From the IMG/VR virus record IMGVR_UViG_3300029214_000257, positions 1 through 8,955 of that record: a stretch of DNA of 8,955 bases; one strand, 5' to 3'. Source of the stretch: a virus (lineage: Duplodnaviria; Heunggongvirae; Uroviricota; Caudoviricetes). The notes under the pieces are model-generated. The model was not told where the DNA came from. It made no database searches and saw nothing but the letters and a program-made list of their open reading frames with translations. A program made the position numbers and the translations under genes. This document shows positions 2,733-8,955 of the stretch, one piece after another; the stretch's first letter is position 1; each line of letters opens with the position of its first letter.

Positions 2733-2775
2733 CCCATCAACCCCGCCATTTCGGTTCAAGGTTGATGGGTTTTTT
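2733..2775 (+). terminator. rho-independent terminator downstream of ybjL
   Basis: CCCATCAACC (2733-2742) pairs with GGTTGATGGG (2760-2769), then TTTTTT (2770-2775). About 113 nt after the ybjL stop. Confidence 0.5.
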
Positions 2776-2833
2776 GTTGCCTGAAATTTATGCTATTTAA
2801 AATCATGATGTTAGAAGCACTGTTTTTTAACGA

Positions 2834-2855: not shown

Positions 2856-3074
2856 TCAAAGAGAGAGCTCCACCTGTCCTGATTTCATTGGATGCGGCTG
2901 AACCGGATTTGACTCTTTTGGCGTTGCAATCGAACGAACAAAAGTTTCATGGGTAACAAAAGTATGGCTGCAGTTAATGTTCTGGCACTGGTTGTAACGT
3001 TCTTTGGTCAATGAAGATACCTGAAAACTGCTGCGAGTATGGGCGGCACTTCCACACAGTGGGCAAATCATCAT
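2856..3074 (-). CDS. ogr: Ogr/Delta-family zinc-finger late-gene transcription activator
   Basis: 72-aa product from ATG at 3074 (MMICPLCGSAAH...CQNINCSHTF...). Cys4 spacing and length match P2 Ogr (72 aa, recalled). Lies directly downstream of the D fragment as in P2. The ORF track's 83-aa version starts 11 codons upstream. Confidence 0.75.
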   Translation of the reverse strand: MMICPLCGSAAHTRSSFQVSSLTKERYNQCQNINCSHTFVTHETFVRSIATPKESNPVQPHPMKSGQVELSL

Positions 3075-3164
3075 TTTTCGAGTTCTCCCCATTTTTGCTA
3101 AATTCACAATAATGATACCGCATTATTCCATTTTGCAAACTTAAAAGTTCTCCATTGCGAAGAA

Positions 3165-3605
3165 TCATTCCATTTCGAAATCATCAATCCTCACTTCAAG
3201 CTCCAGACTGGTCGTAAAACCATTATCCGGGCTGACGGTATGAGTCAGAGTCGTAATGGTCCATTCCGCATCATCTATCGGTTGTTTAAAGCCACTAACT
3301 TTCACTGGCATTTCCGTGTAAAGATCTGCCCGCCCTTCCGCCAGTTGTAGCGAGAATGACGCAACGCCGCGTTGCAGGCGTTCCCACTGCATTTTCGCTG
3401 CCCGTTCAGCGTTGCTCCGGTTGGCATAAGTGCGATTAAGTACCAGCACGTTTTCATCCGTACCCACCAGGTAATCGCCCTGCTTCGCTTCCGGCTCTTT
3501 CTTCTGCTTCTTAGTTCTGCGCTTACGCTTCACCGTGGTGCTTTCTTTCTTCGCAGGTTCGCGGGTATGCAACCAGCTGGCAATTACGCCCGTGTAAACG
3601 CCCAA
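3165..3605 (-). pseudogene. C-terminal fragment of P2 gpD-like tail protein (D')
   Basis: Translation (GVYTGVIASWLHTRE...LQRGVASFSLQLAEGRADLY...LELEV...) resembles the C-terminal third of P2 gpD from memory. No ATG start: the frame opens with TTG at 3605 and is open up to 3626. Sits immediately upstream of ogr as in P2. Confidence 0.55.
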
Positions 3606-4062
3606 TCTGTGCCCACTGTTCGGTGGTCAACTTAGGACGGCGTCCACCTACTCTGCCTTTGGCACGAGCTGCAGCCAGCCCTGCCCTGGTACGTTCAACT
3701 ATCAGTTCGCGTTCCATTTCAGCCAGGGCACCCATGACATGAAAAAAGAAACGGCCCATTGGGGTACTGGTATCAATACTGTCAGTCAGGCTTCTGAAAT
3801 TCACACCACGCTGGCGCAACTCTTCTATCAGCGTAACAAGATGCCGCATACTGCGCCCCAACCTGTCCAGCTTCCAGACAACCAGCGTGTCTCCTGCCGA
3901 TAGTGTCCTGAGTAGTTTTTTCAGCCCCGGTCTGTCGGACTTAGTGCCACTGATTTTGTCCTCAAAAATCTGCTCACATCCCGCGCAATTCAGTGCATTA
4001 CGTTGCAAATCGGTGTTCTGGTCATTTGTTGACACGCGTACATAGCCAATAAGCATGATCAT
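3523..4062 (-). pseudogene. truncated Pin/Gin/Hin-family serine DNA invertase (catalytic domain only; C-terminal HTH lost)
   Basis: N-terminal about 156 aa (LIGYVRVSTNDQ...DTLVVWKLDRLGRS...GRFFFHVMGALAEMERE...) closely resembles e14 Pin from memory. Homology stops after ...TEQWAQIGRL near nt 3595 and the frame runs into unrelated sequence before the stop at 3523. Confidence 0.75.
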
Positions 4063-4112
4063 CCCCCTGAATAAAAACCGGAGATGATGCCAGTTAGCTG
4101 TTACCTCTGCAT

Positions 4113-4138
4113 TTTCTTAAACGTTGGTTTGGGAGAAG
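4113..4138. other. candidate gix/hix-like invertase crossover site (TTTTCTTAAACG TT GGTTTGGGAGAA)
   Basis: 26-bp imperfect inverted repeat matching recalled gix/hix sites at about 17 of 26 positions. Located about 50 bp upstream of the invertase start, the usual site-invertase arrangement. Confidence 0.3.
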
Positions 4139-4350
4139 CCAGATATCAGCGTTGAATCTTCAGTCAGATCGGTAAGCAGCCAGATTTCTGGTGCGGTTAA
4201 TAAATGAGGTTGAGCTGGGTTCAGCTTGTTCCGCAGAATCTGCACATTCATGCCAGCACGTTCTGCCAGTTGCACCAGGTTGTGGCGCAATGCGAATGCA
4301 CGACAGGCTTCATCAAAATGTGGATGTTTGGAAACTTGGTAATCAAACAT
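4117..4350 (-). pseudogene. truncated CII-like HTH regulator (186 CII-type N-terminal domain only)
   Basis: 77 aa from ATG 4350 ([45 protein letters not shown]...). Clear HTH, resembles the N-terminus of phage 186 CII from memory. Ends at about 77 aa versus about 169 expected. SD AGAGG 9 nt upstream. Lies downstream of the apl-like gene as in 186. Confidence 0.5.
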
Positions 4351-4382
4351 GGTCAATGCCTCTGATGTATTTCAGAATCGAA

Positions 4383-4604
4383 CTAATTAAGGTTTAGATT
4401 GCATTCTGAAAGCGCATCAACGGTCATGGCTGCTATGTTGATCATCACTTTTTCGCGTTTTTTATCTTTCCGCAGACGGTGACGGATAAGACGTCCATCA
4501 GCCAACATGTCATTGATAGTATCGATGGATAGCCCTGTCAGCTCGCTATAACGTTCAATAGTCACATGAGGCGTGGTAAGAGTGATTGAAATGTTATGTT
4601 TCAT
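4383..4604 (-). CDS. Apl/Cox-like excisionase / lytic-operon first gene (small HTH protein)
   Basis: 73-aa ORF with an AlpA/excisionase-like HTH ([23 protein letters not shown]). Divergent from cI and first gene of the apl-cII-type operon. Confidence 0.5.
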
Positions 4605-4729
4605 GATGCAACATTCCTCGTTTAATGTTGATTAATCAGGACGAATACGGATCGTTTGTATTTTGTGAACATCATAAACATACGATCGCATAATGAAATC
4701 GTCAAGACAAAAGTTCACTTGGAGTGACC
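4605..4729. promoter_or_regulatory. lysis/lysogeny switch region between divergent apl-like and cI-like genes
   Basis: 125-bp AT-rich intergenic region. Minus-strand candidate promoter: -35 TTGACG (4705-4700), 17-bp spacer, -10 TATGTT (4682-4677). GTGAAC (4666-4671) and GTTCAC (4713-4718) form an inverted pair. Palindrome CGATCG at 4683-4688. Confidence 0.4.
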
Positions 4730-5299
4730 ATGAATTTGGAGAAAGGCGGACGAGGCGCTATAGAGCGCATGGTAGAAGCATATGGCTTCAAGACTCGACA
4801 GGCGTTGTGCGATCACTTAGGAATCTCTAAAAGTACTCTCGCCACACGCTATATGCGTGACTCATTCCCTGCTGAATGGGTAATCCAGTGCGCACTTGAA
4901 ACGGGCGCCTCGCTTAACTGGCTCACGACCGGACATGGTTCAAAGCAAACTTCAGGTAATACAAATACTATGGAAGTCGTTAAATATGTATTATCTGATG
5001 GAACCTTGCAGGAAGATGGTTTTTATATTTTCGATAAAGAATTTCTACCATCTACGCTCAAAAATCCGTTTGTAATCACCGATAACAATTCCGTTTTTAT
5101 TTGCGATAAAGAGTTTAACGATATTCGTGACGGCAAATGGGTAATAAGTATTGATGCCGAAGTAACAATCCGCGATATCACTCGTTTACCTGGTGGAAGA
5201 ATCTTAGTTGAAGGTGGAAATAGGGCTTTCGAATGTAAAAAAGAAGAAATCGAAATTATTGGAAAAATTATAACCATAACAGTTAAGTACTTTGAGTAA
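4730..5299 (+). CDS. cI: 186-type CI immunity repressor (N-terminal HTH domain plus C-terminal oligomerisation domain)
   Basis: 189 aa from ATG 4730, with GGAG SD 5 nt upstream (the ORF track starts at an in-frame GTG at 4724). The N-terminal domain (GGRGAIERMVEAYGFKTRQALCDHLGISKSTLATRYMRDSFPAEWVIQCALETGASLNWL) looks like the 186 CI DNA-binding domain. Length matches 186 CI (about 192 aa). Confidence 0.8.
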   Translation: MNLEKGGRGAIERMVEAYGFKTRQALCDHLGISKSTLATRYMRDSFPAEWVIQCALETGASLNWLTTGHGSKQTSGNTNTMEVVKYVLSDGTLQEDGFYIFDKEFLPSTLKNPFVITDNNSVFICDKEFNDIRDGKWVISIDAEVTIRDITRLPGGRILVEGGNRAFECKKEEIEIIGKIITITVKYFE

Positions 5300-5349
5300 T
5301 ATAGGAATGTTTTTATGCTTGGTAAAGCATTTGTTGTGGTGTAAAAAAT

Positions 5350-6273
5350 ATGTCAACTCAAAAATTAAAATTTAGCCATATCAAAAACGATCTGAAAGCA
5401 ATAGTCATGCAGAATCGTGGAGGGCAAAAAGTTATTGAGCGTATACTCCTAGCCTATGGCTTCAAGTCACGACAGGCATTATGTAATCATCTAGGTATTT
5501 CCCAAAGTACTATGGCCAACAGATATGCACGTAATACCTTTCCTGCAGATTGGGTTGTTATATGTTCCATAGAAACAGGAGCATCAATTGAATGGTTAGT
5601 TCTTGGTTCAGATACTGCTCCTTCATCAGAGCAATATTCTGAAAAACATGCCGTTAATGGCCTTTGCAATGAAGTATACATTCCCACTATAAAGTTCGAT
5701 AATGAAAAACTCATGAATTTTAACCGAGGAGGTAAGGCAACAATAGAACGAATTGTCGAGGCTTACGGTTACAAAACGCGCCAAGCATTAGCTGATCACC
5801 TAGGTATTTCAAAAAGCACATTAGCCACACGATACATGCGTGACATTTTTCCTGCAGACTGGGTTTTGCAGTGTGCAATAGAAACGGGCCATTCTATTGA
5901 ATGGATTTCATTTGGTACAGGAGAAATGAAAAACGCAAAAAATAAAGATACTTTAACATTAGTGAAAAAAGTATTAATCAATGGCAAGTTAATAAATGAT
6001 GGCTCATATTTATTTGACCCATGTTTTCTACCTTCCAATTTAAAAAATGCATTCGTAGTATCTACCGAAGGCTCTGAATTAATATGTGAAATGGGTTTTA
6101 AAGATGTACATGATGGTAAGTGGCTAGTAAATATTGATGGAGAGAATTCATTTAGAATGATAACTCGACTACCTAAAGGACGAGTTTATATTTCATCCAA
6201 AAATCACTCTTTTGAATGTTCGCTTACAGACATTGAGTTTATTGCAAAAGTTATTATAAGTTGTTTACATTAA
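5350..6273 (+). CDS. CI-repressor paralogue with tandemly duplicated N-terminal HTH domain plus CI-like C-terminal domain
   Basis: 307-aa ORF. Residues about 24-86 and 127-189 are two copies of the CI N-terminal domain (copy 2 is about 75% identical to the adjacent cI N-terminal domain). Residues about 200-307 parallel the cI C-terminal domain (VVKYVLSDGTL...DGKW in cI versus LVKKVLINGKL...DGKW here). Alternative start at M20 (5407). Confidence 0.75.
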   Translation: MSTQKLKFSHIKNDLKAIVMQNRGGQKVIERILLAYGFKSRQALCNHLGISQSTMANRYARNTFPADWVVICSIETGASIEWLVLGSDTAPSSEQYSEKHAVNGLCNEVYIPTIKFDNEKLMNFNRGGKATIERIVEAYGYKTRQALADHLGISKSTLATRYMRDIFPADWVLQCAIETGHSIEWISFGTGEMKNAKNKDTLTLVKKVLINGKLINDGSYLFDPCFLPSNLKNAFVVSTEGSELICEMGFKDVHDGKWLVNIDGENSFRMITRLPKGRVYISSKNHSFECSLTDIEFIAKVIISCLH

Positions 6274-6298: not shown

Positions 6299-7816
6299 GT
6301 GAAATGTGGTGATTGTAATTGGAACTGGGATGAAGAAACTACCTTTATATTAGACGACGAAGAGGAAATTCTCTCCAAAGACAAACTTAATCGGAGACAC
6401 TATGCAGAATATCTATATTTTTATCTTAAGGAAAAGGGGCAAAAGAACAATACGGTAATCAACCTTAATGCAGAATGGGGAGCTGGTAAAAGTTTTTTCA
6501 TAAAGAGATTTTATAACTCAATAAAAGATGCACACCCATGCGTTTACATTGATGCCTGGAAGCAAGACTTTTCTGATGATGCATTTTTAACCCTTTTTTC
6601 TTCTTTGTCACAACAATTGCAAACATATGCAGGAAAACTTGATGCTCGATTGATACAAAGCGGCCATGCTATCGGACGCTTTACAAAAGGTGTTCTACCT
6701 GAAATCATATCTGGCCTAATCAAGACTTATGCAGGAGTAGATAACGTAGGTGATATAGCCAAAGAAGCCTCATTAATAATGCTGAAGGAACACCAGGAAA
6801 AACTGAAGAGCATTAAGGTATTAAAAAAAGAACTTACGTTATGGTCTAGGTTGGCATATGAAAATAGTTTTTCATGTCCTATATTTATCTTTATAGATGA
6901 ATTAGACAGATGCAGGCCAGATTATGCAATTTCTCTTTTAGAGATTGTTAAACATATATTCGATATTAAAAATTTTGTCTTTATTATTGCTACTGACACA
7001 GATCAATTACAACATTCAATCAAGAATGTTTACGGTAATGATTTTTCCGCAAATGACTATTTAGGCCGTTTTTTTCATAGAAGATTTACTTTAAAACAAC
7101 CTGAACTTAAAGATTTAATTAATGGTGTTGTTGGTGATTATATTGGTACCGAGTTTGAAAATATCACATCAAAAACATACCCACTAACCGCAACATTAGA
7201 AGACTTTTCAATAAATATTTCCAACGTATTTGAAGCATTTGGGTTAAATCTAAGAGACTCAATCCGAAATACTGAAAGGTTAATAGACATTCTTAAATCT
7301 GATTTAGTCAAAAAGAAAGTAGATTATATTTTTATAATTTCGCTAATGATTATATATGATAAGGATCGTCAAATTATAGATGGACTAATTGGTCGAAGAA
7401 ATGCAGCACAACGTTTCACTGATTCGATAAAGCAAAGCTCCAATTTAAAAGGTGTTTCTCAAGCCATCCTTGAATTAAATCTTGATACAAATCAGCAAAG
7501 AATAGGTGTCAATTATATCTATACAACGGCGAACAGTAGATTATTCATCTCACAGATCGAACCCAAAATAAGTTTAACATTAATAAATTACTTAGATGTT
7601 GCATTGTATTTTATCAATAATATAAACATACTTAAATCAAGTATAAAAAACAATGGGCAAAATTCACTAATGATTAAATCTAAACAAGGCCCTATTGATG
7701 GTGATACAGCTATAAAGTATTTGCAAGGAGCCCTTATAGAGAATGGACTGAATACATCTTTTTATGCCTTACATAATTACATTGAATTAATTGAACTGGC
7801 CACATCATTTGATTAA
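6299..7816 (+). CDS. KAP-family P-loop NTPase (PifA-like)
   Basis: 505-aa ORF with GTG start at 6299 and GGAG 9 nt upstream. Walker A EWGAGKS (G61-S65, nt 6479-6493). KAP-type Walker B IFIDELDRC (D200-C205, nt 6896-6913). Very AT-rich coding sequence. Starts 25 bp after the 307-aa ORF, so probably co-transcribed. Confidence 0.85.
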   Translation: MKCGDCNWNWDEETTFILDDEEEILSKDKLNRRHYAEYLYFYLKEKGQKNNTVINLNAEWGAGKSFFIKRFYNSIKDAHPCVYIDAWKQDFSDDAFLTLFSSLSQQLQTYAGKLDARLIQSGHAIGRFTKGVLPEIISGLIKTYAGVDNVGDIAKEASLIMLKEHQEKLKSIKVLKKELTLWSRLAYENSFSCPIFIFIDELDRCRPDYAISLLEIVKHIFDIKNFVFIIATDTDQLQHSIKNVYGNDFSANDYLGRFFHRRFTLKQPELKDLINGVVGDYIGTEFENITSKTYPLTATLEDFSINISNVFEAFGLNLRDSIRNTERLIDILKSDLVKKKVDYIFIISLMIIYDKDRQIIDGLIGRRNAAQRFTDSIKQSSNLKGVSQAILELNLDTNQQRIGVNYIYTTANSRLFISQIEPKISLTLINYLDVALYFINNINILKSSIKNNGQNSLMIKSKQGPIDGDTAIKYLQGALIENGLNTSFYALHNYIELIELATSFD

Positions 7817-7902: not shown

Positions 7903-8955
7903 ATGGCAGTACGAAAACTCACCACAGGAAAATGGCTTTGCGAATGTTACCCCGCCGGACGTAGTGGGCGTCGGGTGCGTAAACAATTCGCCACCAAAGG
8001 CGAAGCTCTGGCTTTTGAGCGCCACACGATGGAAGAAACCGAAGCAAAGCCCTGGCTGGGTGAATCAGTGGATCGTCGAACACTGAAAGACGTGGTTGAG
8101 CTATGGTTCAAACTACATGGTAAATCTCTGACAGCTGGGCAGCATGTCTATGACAAATTGCTGTTGATGGTTGACGCTCTGGGCAATCCTCTTGCAACCG
8201 ATCTCACCTCTAAAATGTTTGCCCACTATCGAGATAAACGCCTGACAGGCGAGATCTACTTCAGCGAGAAATGGAAGAAAGGAGCAAGCCCGGTCACCAT
8301 TAACCTGGAGCAAAGCTATCTAAGTAGTGTTTTTAGCGAACTATCCCGTCTGGGCGAATGGTCGTATCCGAACCCACTGGAGAACATGCGAAAATTCACC
8401 ATCGCAGAAAAAGAGATGGCATGGCTTACCCATGAGCAGATTGTTGAATTGCTGGCTGATTGCAAACGTCAGGACCCAATTCTGGCACTGGTAGTTAAGA
8501 TATGCTTAAGCACAGGCGCACGCTGGCGTGAAGCCGTAAATCTTACCCGCTCACAGGTGACCAAATACCGAATTACCTTTGTCAGAACGAAGGGGAAGAA
8601 AAACAGAAGCATCCCTATAAGTAAAGAGCTTTACGAAGAGATCATGGCGCTTGATGGGTTCAATTTCTTTACAGACTGCTATTTTCAATTTTTATCCGTG
8701 ATGGAAAAAACGTCTATCGTGCTCCCTCGCGGTCAACTCACACACGTTCTGCGCCATACGTTTGCGGCGCACTTCATGATGTCGGGTGGAAACATTCTGG
8801 CCTTACAAAAAATTCTCGGACACCACGATATAAAAATGACTATGCGTTACGCACATCTGGCACCGGATCATCTGGAAACGGCGCTCCGTTTCAATCCTCT
8901 GGCAACGCTGCCAAGTGGCGACAAAGTGGCGGCAGCGGTTGGCATTACCCCGTAA
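7903..8955 (+). CDS. int: P2-type tyrosine integrase
   Basis: 350 aa, alignable by eye with P2 Int (recalled): ICLSTGARWREA (Arg box), TFVRTKGKKNRSIPIS, HVLRHTFAAHFMMSGGNILALQKILGH, MRYAHL (catalytic Tyr). The 3' end overlaps the second 22-bp repeat. Confidence 0.9.
   Translation: MAVRKLTTGKWLCECYPAGRSGRRVRKQFATKGEALAFERHTMEETEAKPWLGESVDRRTLKDVVELWFKLHGKSLTAGQHVYDKLLLMVDALGNPLATDLTSKMFAHYRDKRLTGEIYFSEKWKKGASPVTINLEQSYLSSVFSELSRLGEWSYPNPLENMRKFTIAEKEMAWLTHEQIVELLADCKRQDPILALVVKICLSTGARWREAVNLTRSQVTKYRITFVRTKGKKNRSIPISKELYEEIMALDGFNFFTDCYFQFLSVMEKTSIVLPRGQLTHVLRHTFAAHFMMSGGNILALQKILGHHDIKMTMRYAHLAPDHLETALRFNPLATLPSGDKVAAAVGITP
8916..8937. repeat. 22-bp direct repeat copy 2 (candidate attL core): TGGCGACAAAGTGGCGGCAGCG
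   Basis: 21 of 22 identical to 2834-2855. Lies inside the last 14 codons of int, so the final 6 int codons (8938-8955) fall outside the repeat-bounded element. Confidence 0.55.

What the first reader, a model, noticed from the sequence alone, without database searches (positions are those of the whole stretch)
5350..6273. Repressor paralogue with a tandemly duplicated CI DNA-binding domain
The 307-aa protein contains two full copies of the 186-type CI N-terminal HTH domain (about residues 24-86 and 127-189, repeat period about 103 aa), then a CI-like C-terminal domain. With the adjacent cI this makes three CI-type HTH domains within 1.5 kb. The copies are similar in protein but clearly diverged in nucleotide sequence, so the duplication is old and has been kept under selection. 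Two HTH domains in one chain could bind an operator as a single-chain pseudo-dimer, co-assemble with CI through the shared C-terminal domain, or act as a decoy for anti-repressors of incoming phages (Tum-type).
Basis: seen in the sequence. Interest (0 to 1): 0.7.

Follow-up and report, generated by a model that had tools for sequence, protein, structure and literature searches.

The report
Extra two-headed 186-type phage repressor
This prophage remnant carries, right after its normal repressor gene, an intact second repressor with two DNA-binding heads; in related phages that two-headed protein is the only repressor, so here it most likely came from a rival phage and may extend immunity against that rival.

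Summary
ORF 5350-6273 encodes a 307-aa protein with two 186-type CI HTH domains (residues 23-86 and 126-189), a disordered linker and a 186-CI-type C-terminal domain.

The "paralogue of the neighbouring cI" reading is only partly right. Tandem-HTH CI proteins are a widespread, apparently undescribed class. In all 14 other tandem-CI loci examined, the tandem protein is the only CI and sits directly at the apl/cI switch. About 170-220 of 5,426 complete E. coli genomes carry it that way.

Its added first head has a recognition helix (ISQSTMANRYARD) never seen in single-HTH CIs. In its native switch, direct repeats (TCACAWWWCG) replace the palindrome used by a sister single-HTH CI.

The window lineage (17 of 5,426 genomes, including EPEC E2348/69) is a recombinant. 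An E. coli B-type switch plus cI is joined at 5341/5342 to the tandem CI, a KAP NTPase and int. The "palindrome" at 5300-5349 is a truncated small ORF, not an operator. The gene has lost its native promoter and operators.

Best reading: it is co-transcribed with cI and acts in trans as a second immunity repressor against tandem-CI-class phages. A neutral relic cannot be excluded. This is a new variant of a known kind, of moderate interest.

The parts
5350..6273 (+). Tandem-HTH 186-type CI repressor gene (307 aa), annotated 'phage repressor protein CI' (WP_000107166.1 in E2348/69)
   Evidence: ORF; Pfam PF07022 x2 + PF16452; RefSeq annotation
5350..5415 (+). N-terminal extension (residues 1-22) found only in the main tandem-CI clade; model has a helix at residues 13-21
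   Evidence: Alignment A1; AF2
5416..5607 (+). HTH1 (residues 23-86) with recognition helix ISQSTMANRYARN; the family helix ISQSTMANRYARD occurs only in first heads of tandem proteins
5608..5724 (+). Variable, predicted-disordered linker (residues 87-125); contains Met122, which aligns with the start of single-HTH CIs
   Evidence: pLDDT below 50 for residues 89-121; 17% mean family identity
5725..5916 (+). HTH2 (residues 126-189) with recognition helix ISKSTLATRYMRD, identical to that of the adjacent cI
5968..6255 (+). 186-CI-type C-terminal (oligomerisation) domain; closest to the C-terminal domains of single-HTH 186-aa CIs (65-69%), not to those of other tandem CIs
   Evidence: Pfam; Foldseek 2fkd_A TM 0.91; segment BLAST
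5315..5344 (+). Recombination scar: 9-codon remnant (MLGKAFVVV*) of the 63-aa small ORF that follows cI in E. coli B-type prophages. It ends 5 nt before the tandem-CI ATG.
5351..5375 (.). Relics of the native switch inside the 5' coding region: TTGACA (-35 of the native pR-like promoter, minus strand, 5351-5356) without its -10, and a degraded operator D at 5366-5375 (TAAAATTTAG against the family TCACATTTCG, 3 changes)
4730..5299 (+). Canonical single-HTH cI (189 aa from ATG 4730; 191 aa from GTG 4724), E. coli B-type immunity module
4605..4729 (.). apl/cI switch region of the resident (B-type) immunity module, with inverted repeats GATCGTTTGT / ACATACGATC
4383..4604 (-). apl (73 aa), about 84% identical to the Apl of tandem-CI phages
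6299..7816 (+). KAP-family P-loop NTPase (505 aa), a PADLOC PDC-S20 candidate defence gene; cargo in the cI-int interval
   Evidence: Pfam; PADLOC 6.2e-78
7903..8955 (+). Phage integrase (rcdA-site 186-like prophages), 99% identical to that of Klebsiella phage 4LV2017

Best explanation
The 307-aa protein is an intact member of a widespread but apparently uncharacterised class of 186-type CI repressors. These carry an extra N-terminal HTH head (N-extension, HTH1, disordered linker) in front of a complete CI (HTH2 plus wheel-type C-terminal domain). In its native setting this protein is the phage's only immunity repressor. It is encoded directly opposite apl. Its start codon overlaps the -35 of a pR-like lytic promoter, and three same-orientation repeats (TCACAWWWCG at -33, -13 and +16) bracket that promoter. 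These facts are shown by sequence; the binding itself is inferred. In this window the gene lies downstream of a different, canonical cI. A recombination between two rcdA-integrating 186-like phages joined an E. coli B-type switch plus cI to the tandem CI, a KAP NTPase and int of another phage (junction 5341/5342; shown). Stripped of its own promoter and operators, the gene is most likely co-transcribed with cI from the lysogenic promoter (inferred). It would then act in trans, shutting down the lytic promoter of superinfecting tandem-CI-class relatives that compete for the same attachment site. That would give the lysogen two immunity specificities (inferred).
For: Architecture. Sole repressor at the switch: all 14 other tandem-CI loci show this, from E. 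coli, Klebsiella phages, Dryocola and Enterobacteriaceae RIT714. Among 73 loci with a CI-type HTH, only this lineage (4 loci) has stacked CI genes. Prevalence in 5,426 complete E. coli genomes: 187 carry a tandem-type N-terminal region, 222 carry the native apl-switch-tandem-CI junction, and 17 carry the stacked form. Recombinant origin: window 4560-5340 is 88-90% identical to the module in about 523 E. coli genomes, including C41(DE3). Window 5342-5917 is 79% identical to phage 4LV2017, and int is 96% identical in DNA. A truncated small ORF lies at the joint. Distinct specificity: the helix ISQSTMANRYARD occurs in 28 first heads (more counting one-residue variants) among the 47 tandem proteins and in none of the 76 single-HTH CIs. 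A sister 198-aa single-HTH CI uses a collinear switch with the same Apl protein, but has the palindrome GTNCCCAAATGGGNAC and a half-site exactly where the tandem-CI switch has the TCACAWWWCG repeats. A pR-like promoter (10 of 12 matches) overlaps these sites. An unbiased repeat search finds direct repeats and no inverted repeats there. Expression: no terminator-like or above-chance promoter-like site lies between cI and the gene. Retention: the ORF is intact both in full prophages and in remnants that lost nearly all other phage genes.
Against: There is no experimental evidence for expression, DNA binding or immunity. The stacked lineage is young: only 5 nucleotide differences (3 synonymous, 2 non-synonymous codons) separate the window from E2348/69. 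Intactness therefore does not prove selection. The window protein has six private changes at family positions that are at least 90% conserved (family median 3). They include D62N at the end of the HTH1 recognition helix and R9S, which could reflect relaxed constraint. The operator assignment rests on covariation and position, and the motif was derived from the same loci. The motif is not enriched in the window as a whole (6 matches against 5.7 expected). HTH2's recognition helix is identical to that of the resident cI, and the resident switch holds TCACAAAAT and TCGCATAAT. The protein might therefore act on its own prophage rather than only on incoming phages.
Confidence: 0.55

Rival explanations
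1. Neutral relic. The gene is simply what was left behind when an immunity-module exchange placed a new switch and cI in front of the old repressor. It is still intact only because the event is recent, and it does nothing useful.
For: Its native promoter and operators are gone, and the in-gene operator D has three changes. There are private substitutions at conserved positions, including D62N and R9S. The lineage is rare and young (17 of 5,426 genomes, at least 99% identical). A 186-aa variant starting at Met122 and a 251-aa partial form exist in the cluster.
Against: 13 of the 15 listed cluster members are full-length 307 aa. The exact protein is listed in 139 blocks of the collection, from hosts as different as humans, pigs, dogs and river water. 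It is retained intact together with cI and the KAP gene in remnants that deleted almost the whole prophage. No frameshifted copy was seen in the four stacked loci compared.
Confidence: 0.25
2. Modulator of the resident switch. Through HTH2 (same recognition helix as cI) and/or its CI-type C-terminal domain, the protein binds the prophage's own operators or mixes into cI oligomers. It would tighten repression or buffer cI against the antirepressor, making the prophage harder to induce.
For: The HTH2 helix ISKSTLATRYMRD is identical to that of cI. The resident switch contains TCACAAAAT and TCGCATAAT, which match the motif derived from native tandem-CI switches; two hits fall in 119 bp where about 0.06 are expected (and own arithmetic). 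The DinI-like (Tum-region) protein is 100% identical in a tandem-CI phage and in the stacked and B-type prophages, so one antirepressor may see both repressor types.
Against: The two C-terminal domains are only 49% identical. C-terminal domains are the most variable part of the family (35%), which argues against easy mixed assembly. The same recognition helix is shared by CIs with clearly different switches, so the helix alone does not predict the operator. The resident-type module works without this gene in about 523 genomes.
Confidence: 0.15
3. Sensor or regulator partner of the downstream KAP NTPase, forming a two-gene anti-phage system.
For: The two genes are adjacent, on the same strand, 25 bp apart. 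The KAP protein matches the defence candidate PDC-S20.
Against: PDC-S20 is listed as a single-gene candidate, and the CI protein has no PADLOC hit. A related KAP gene follows an ordinary single-HTH cI that is the phage's own repressor (L071). Other tandem CIs are followed by unrelated cargo: GmrSD plus HEPN, an ATP-dependent nuclease, AAA_15 plus DUF4276, and hypothetical proteins. The adjacency therefore reflects a cargo hotspot.
Confidence: 0.04

Closest known systems
Coliphage 186 CI immunity repressor (PDB 2FJR, 2FKD)
   Same: Same HTH family (PF07022) and same C-terminal domain (PF16452). Residues 131-302 align to 2fjr_A at E 1.3e-23. The C-terminal domain model superposes on 2fkd_A at TM 0.91. 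In relatives the gene sits opposite apl in the same gene order (apl, cII, fil ... / cI ... int).
   Different: It has an extra N-terminal extension, HTH1 and a roughly 35-aa disordered linker, so there are two heads per chain. Native operators appear to be direct repeats, whereas 186 CI operators are, from my own knowledge and not checked here, inverted repeats. In this window the gene is not at the switch but downstream of another cI. Wheel formation was not tested.
Single-HTH 198-aa CI of sister rcdA/186-like prophages (e.g. WP_022645416.1, locus L073)
   Same: Same Apl protein (WP_000188448.1), a collinear switch, and the same ATGTCAA start overlapping the -35 of a pR-like promoter. Its HTH resembles HTH2 of the tandem proteins, and it begins MST...INPNxGGKAAIERL, like the segment before HTH2.
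   Different: It lacks the roughly 110-aa insertion (N-extension, HTH1, linker). Its switch carries a palindrome, GTNCCCAAATGGGNAC, plus a half-site where the tandem-CI switch carries TCACAWWWCG direct repeats.
P2 C repressor and its operators
   Same: An immunity repressor of a P2-family phage whose operators are two direct repeats (abstract of PMC1904268).
   Different: It is an unrelated, much smaller single-HTH protein without the 186-type C-terminal domain. It reads direct repeats as a dimer, not through two heads in one chain.
Engineered single-chain repressors (covalently linked 434 or Cro DNA-binding domains; from my own knowledge, not checked here)
   Same: Two HTH domains joined in one polypeptide by a flexible linker, which allows recognition of asymmetric or non-palindromic sites.
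   Different: Those are laboratory constructs without an oligomerisation domain. This is a natural protein that keeps a full CI C-terminal domain.
Cargo/defence hotspot between cI and int of P2-related phages
   Same: A variable interval between repressor and integrase holding defence genes. It is described for K139-like Vibrio phages (PMC9122126) and as an integrase-primase hotspot in P2-like elements (PMC13586616). In the loci seen here it holds KAP NTPase, GmrSD plus HEPN, an OLD-like nuclease and AAA_15 plus DUF4276.
   Different: The first cargo gene here is itself an immunity repressor of another phage type. I did not find that described for these hotspots.

Membership tests
186-type CI immunity repressor | N-terminal CI-type helix-turn-helix domain (PF07022) | tested here: met
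   Two copies, E 3.8e-56; alignment to 2fjr_A
186-type CI immunity repressor | C-terminal 186-CI-type beta domain (PF16452) | tested here: met
   E 6.7e-25; model against 2fkd_A, TM 0.91, rmsd 1.5 A
186-type CI immunity repressor | [quoted passage not shown] | tested here: not met
   In the window it is the second gene, 50 bp after cI, with no switch of its own. The feature is met by all 14 other tandem-CI loci examined.
186-type CI immunity repressor | Represses the lytic promoter by binding operators; confers immunity | not testable with these tools
   Only operator-like repeats and promoter overlap in native switches could be shown
186-type CI immunity repressor | Dimers assembling into a 14-mer wheel | not testable with these tools
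   Only a monomer model was possible; the fold of the wheel domain is conserved
Tandem-HTH CI class (defined in this report) | N-extension, HTH1 with helix ISQSTMANRYARD, variable linker, then a complete CI | tested here: met
   Alignment A1. The helix is present with one change, D62N. The linker is disordered.
Tandem-HTH CI class (defined in this report) | Cognate switch with TCACAWWWCG direct repeats around a pR-like promoter | tested here: not met
   Homology to the native switch starts only 8 nt before the ATG. Site D is degraded and the -10 is lost.
PADLOC-listed anti-phage defence protein | Match to a known or candidate defence-system model | tested here: not met
   No PADLOC family for the 307-aa protein; only the neighbouring KAP NTPase matches (PDC-S20)
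LexA/lambda-CI-type self-cleaving repressor (Peptidase S24) | S24 domain with catalytic Ser-Lys dyad | tested here: inconclusive
   No S24 Pfam hit for this protein; only a sub-threshold one for the adjacent cI. Foldseek shows distant LexA-fold similarity of the C-terminal domain. Catalytic residues were not examined.

The most novel reading that the evidence does not exclude
Tandem-HTH 186-type CI proteins are an undescribed repressor class. In it, an accreted first head with its own recognition helix re-targets a conserved switch from a palindromic operator to direct repeats, creating a new immunity type without changing the rest of the switch. Stacking of two repressor genes, as in this window, would both give a lysogen double immunity and be the intermediate from which such fusions arise, by in-frame deletion between two adjacent cI genes. 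The existence of at least four unrelated HTH1 lineages fits this: one is 84% identical to ordinary single-HTH CIs of the clade that holds the window's cI. So do tandem forms with either a CI-type or an S24-type C-terminal domain.
Probability: 0.35. Interest if true: 0.7.

Novelty: new variant of a known kind. Interest (0 to 1): 0.5.

Why it matters
The 186 switch is a textbook alternative to lambda, built on a wheel of CI dimers that wraps operator DNA. A natural CI with two heads per chain would put 28 rather than 14 DNA-binding domains on such a wheel. It appears to read direct repeats, and it serves as the only repressor in roughly 3-4% of complete E. coli genomes. That makes it a ready-made test of how operator geometry and immunity specificity evolve. 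The single-HTH and tandem-HTH sister switches differ at just two elements, so they form a clean natural experiment. The stacked arrangement in this window, also present in the reference EPEC strain E2348/69, would be a simple and easily tested case of a prophage borrowing a rival's repressor to widen superinfection immunity. It would add repressor genes to the kinds of cargo found in prophage defence hotspots.

Tried and rejected
- The first genome-contig scan with the single protein found nothing, because the patterns were too specific. The alignment-based scan returned mostly single-HTH CIs and only two tandem loci.
- A window-wide search for the operator-like motif WTCRCAWWWCG was at chance (6 matches against 5.7 expected). 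I therefore make no claim of cognate operators in the window.
- Codon-level comparison within the stacked lineage has no power: 0-5 differences.
- PADLOC and NCBIfam gave no family for the protein.
- Literature searches for a tandem or two-HTH 186/P2-type repressor, for PF07022, and for second repressors giving heteroimmunity found nothing relevant. This covers only the held library.
- The 186-aa cluster member P0131 (starting at Met122) could not be looked up, so I cannot say whether it is a disrupted allele or a true single-head form.
- Large multi-stretch hits in the representative search (P0242, P0258, P0266) were not CI-type proteins by Pfam, and I rejected them as spurious.
- Promoter scans in the window were at chance level (7 found against 7.2 expected), so I propose no internal promoter.
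- I rejected a two-gene system with the KAP NTPase because the cargo next to CI genes varies freely.
I drew no conclusion from it beyond the rooting.

Full report
**Setting.** The window is E. coli chromosome (grxA, ybjM and ybjL at 1-2620) followed by a decayed 186/P2-like prophage integrated next to rcdA. The phage parts are:
- ogr (2856-3107, minus strand)
- a gpD fragment
- a truncated resolvase/invertase
- a truncated cII (4117-4356, minus)
- apl (4383-4604, minus)
- the switch (4605-4729)
- cI (4730-5299)
- the 307-aa ORF (5350-6273)
- a KAP-family NTPase (6299-7816)
- int (7903-8955)

The same immunity region sits in an intact prophage in EPEC E2348/69, where both genes are annotated "phage repressor protein CI". 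An identical remnant occurs in other assemblies.

- Pfam finds the 186-type CI HTH domain twice and the CI C-terminal domain once.
- The neighbouring cI aligns to residues 122-302 (56% identity) and again to residues 23-93 (58%).
- The three HTH segments are 62-73% identical in protein. Third-codon-position identity is only 33-44%, and synonymous divergence is saturated or nearly so.
- AlphaFold2, run on a 35-sequence alignment, gives two separate five-helix domains, an extra helix at residues 13-21, an unstructured linker at 89-121 and a confident beta-rich domain. pTM is 0.39, so no fixed inter-domain arrangement is predicted.
- The C-terminal domain superposes on the 186 CI wheel domain 2fkd_A (TM 0.91, rmsd 1.5 A).

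**It is not a local oddity.** A database search returned dozens of 285-330-aa proteins with the same architecture from E. coli, Salmonella, Klebsiella, Citrobacter, Enterobacter, Kosakonia and Edwardsiella. Of the 120 best hits plus three added reference sequences (123 in all), 47 have two heads. More distant tandem forms exist at 33-44% identity, some with a Peptidase_S24 domain instead of the CI C-terminal domain.

Conservation within 27 main-clade members is uneven:

| Segment | Mean pairwise identity |
|---|---|
| HTH1 | 83% |
| HTH1 recognition helix | 94% |
| HTH2 | 78% |
| Linker | 17% |
| C-terminal domain | 35% |

Both heads are therefore under strong constraint.

**Context changes the interpretation.** In Klebsiella phages 4LV2017 and ST11-OXA245phi3.1, in Enterobacteriaceae RIT714 and Dryocola, and in every E. 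coli locus I examined, the tandem protein is the only CI. It is encoded directly opposite apl across an 88-bp switch (124 bp in one lineage). Variable cargo and then int follow it. Among 73 loci holding a CI-type HTH, 55 have one single-head CI, 14 have one tandem CI, and only four have a single-head cI followed by a tandem CI. Those four all belong to the window's lineage.

In 5,426 complete E. coli genomes:
- 187 carry a tandem-type N-terminal region.
- 222 carry the native apl-switch-tandem-CI junction.
- 17 carry the stacked form.

**The stacked form is a recombinant.**
- Window 4560-5340 (end of apl, switch, cI and 41 nt beyond) is 88-90% identical to a module present in about 523 E. coli genomes, including C41(DE3).
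- From 5342 the sequence is 79% identical to phage 4LV2017, starting only 8 nt before the ATG. The int gene is 96% identical in DNA.
- In B-type prophages a 63-aa small ORF follows cI. The window keeps its first nine codons (5315-5344, MLGKAFVVV*).
- The protein itself is mosaic. Its two heads are closest to other tandem CIs (81-87%). Its C-terminal domain is closest to 186-aa single-head CIs (65-69%), and one of those is likewise followed by a KAP NTPase.

**How the class probably works in its native place.** The native switch is about 81% conserved among tandem-CI phages.
- The start ATGTCAA is, on the other strand, the TTGACA -35 of a promoter-like site (10 of 12 matches) facing apl.
- Three same-orientation copies of TCACAWWWCG lie at -33, -13 and +16 relative to the ATG. 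They sit at the start site, in the spacer and upstream of the -35 of that promoter.
- No inverted repeat of 8 nt or more is present there.

A sister group of prophages has the same Apl protein and a collinear switch, but a 198-aa single-head CI. That CI begins MSTSKYP.EIKINPN.GGKAAIERL. It looks like a tandem CI lacking the roughly 110-aa N-extension, HTH1 and linker. At the -33 and +16 positions, where the tandem-CI switch has TCACAWWWCG, the sister switch instead has a palindrome (GTNCCCAAATGGGNAC) and a matching half-site.

The helix ISQSTMANRYARD occurs only in first heads. The HTH2 helices are shared with single-head CIs. Gain of the first head thus goes with a change of two operator-like elements. 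I infer that HTH1 is a working DNA-binding domain that defines a separate immunity type, and that two flexibly linked heads per chain suit direct repeats. None of this binding has been demonstrated.

**What the gene probably does in this window.** It has lost its native promoter. The -35 is kept at 5351-5356, but the -10 is gone. The in-gene repeat is degraded (5366-5375, three changes in an otherwise invariant stretch). No terminator-like site separates it from cI, and promoter-like matches are at chance. Co-transcription with cI is therefore the simplest expectation. The nine-codon remnant ends 5 nt before the ATG and might couple translation; this is inference.

The resident prophage and tandem-CI phages share nearly identical integrases and the same attachment site. 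I therefore favour a trans-acting role, in which the gene represses incoming tandem-CI-class relatives and gives the lysogen two immunity specificities. The gene stays intact in remnants that deleted almost everything else.

**Caveats.**
- The lineage is young, so intactness is weak evidence.
- The protein carries D62N at the end of the HTH1 helix, R9S, and six private changes at conserved positions against a family median of three.
- HTH2 shares its helix with the resident cI, and the resident switch holds two motif-like sites. Action on its own switch is therefore possible.
- A functional pairing with the KAP NTPase is unlikely. The cargo next to CI genes varies freely, and the KAP gene matches a single-gene defence candidate.

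**Recurrence.** First heads fall into at least four lineages that are 58-65% identical to each other. One (P0053/P0054) is 84% identical to ordinary single-head CIs of the clade that holds the window's cI. This suggests repeated fusion of one CI's head onto another complete CI. A stacked pair of CI genes such as the one here would be a natural precursor. That remains a hypothesis.

**Comparison with the known, and verdict.** The protein meets the domain criteria of the 186 CI family, but not its positional criterion in this window. Repression, wheel assembly and antirepressor sensitivity could not be tested. I found no paper describing a tandem-HTH 186-type CI or a repressor gene as hotspot cargo in the held library. 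The cI-int interval as a defence hotspot is known for related phages (PMC9122126, PMC13586616). I rate it a new variant of a known kind, of moderate interest (0.5).

Noticed in passing
window 2765-2791: This 27-nt stretch is identical to the sequence just beyond int in E2348/69 (L001 12431-12457). It is probably the att core repeat marking the other end of the prophage remnant.
   Followed up: partly
window 2856-4356: The prophage is a deletion remnant. An intact ogr, a C-terminal gpD fragment (3165-3605), a resolvase/invertase lacking its C-terminal HTH (3523-4062, overlapping the gpD ORF) and a cII cut to 79 aa are joined directly. Replication, lysis and structural genes are gone, while apl, cI, tandem CI, KAP and int stay intact.
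   Followed up: partly
window 6299-7816: The KAP-family P-loop NTPase matches PADLOC candidate PDC-S20 (6e-78) and, more weakly, PifA and QatA. A KAP single-gene system ('Reve') from P4 hotspots is described in PMC13586616. A 504-aa KAP gene also follows an ordinary cI in locus L071.
   Followed up: partly
loci L058-L066, L071, L073, L074 (interval between CI and int): The cI-int interval of these rcdA-integrating 186-like prophages is a cargo hotspot. It holds GmrSD plus HEPN, an ATP-dependent (OLD-like) nuclease, AAA_15 plus DUF4276, DUF4041, an ASCH-containing gene set, or unknown genes.
   Followed up: partly
L003 4012-4026 and equivalents; window 5366-5379: A 13-nt stretch, CACATTTCGCCAT, inside the first 30 codons of native tandem-CI genes is invariant at DNA level across six diverse loci. 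It encodes the conserved 'TFRH'. The conservation may belong to an operator rather than to the peptide. It is mutated only in the window lineage.
   Followed up: partly
L072 4407-4836; L001 2349-2781; L067 1261-1693: A 62-aa protein and a DinI-like 77-aa protein (the position of the 186 tum region) are 98-100% identical between a tandem-CI Klebsiella phage and the E2348/69 prophage. The C41(DE3) B-type remnant carries the same protein accessions. If these are the antirepressor, it must act on very different CI types.
   Followed up: partly
protein P0131 (cluster of the window protein): This 186-aa member starts at Met122 and otherwise has only a few residue differences (G241D, K283Q). It is either a disrupted allele or a natural single-head derivative. 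Met122 aligns with the start of single-HTH CIs.
   Followed up: no
L005 5001-5919 (Dryocola sp. BD586): The tandem CI at this switch is split by a frameshift (two tblastn frames; ORF only 229 aa). It is an apparently decaying copy of the class.
   Followed up: no
proteins P0234, P0280: These distant proteins combine two PF07022 heads with a Peptidase_S24 (LexA-like) C-terminal domain. The two-head arrangement is therefore not tied to the 186-type C-terminal domain.
   Followed up: no
window 4383-4604: The Apl-position protein (73 aa) has no Pfam or NCBIfam hit, although it is highly conserved across all these prophages. RefSeq names it variously 'hypothetical', 'regulator' or 'MerR family'.
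   Followed up: no
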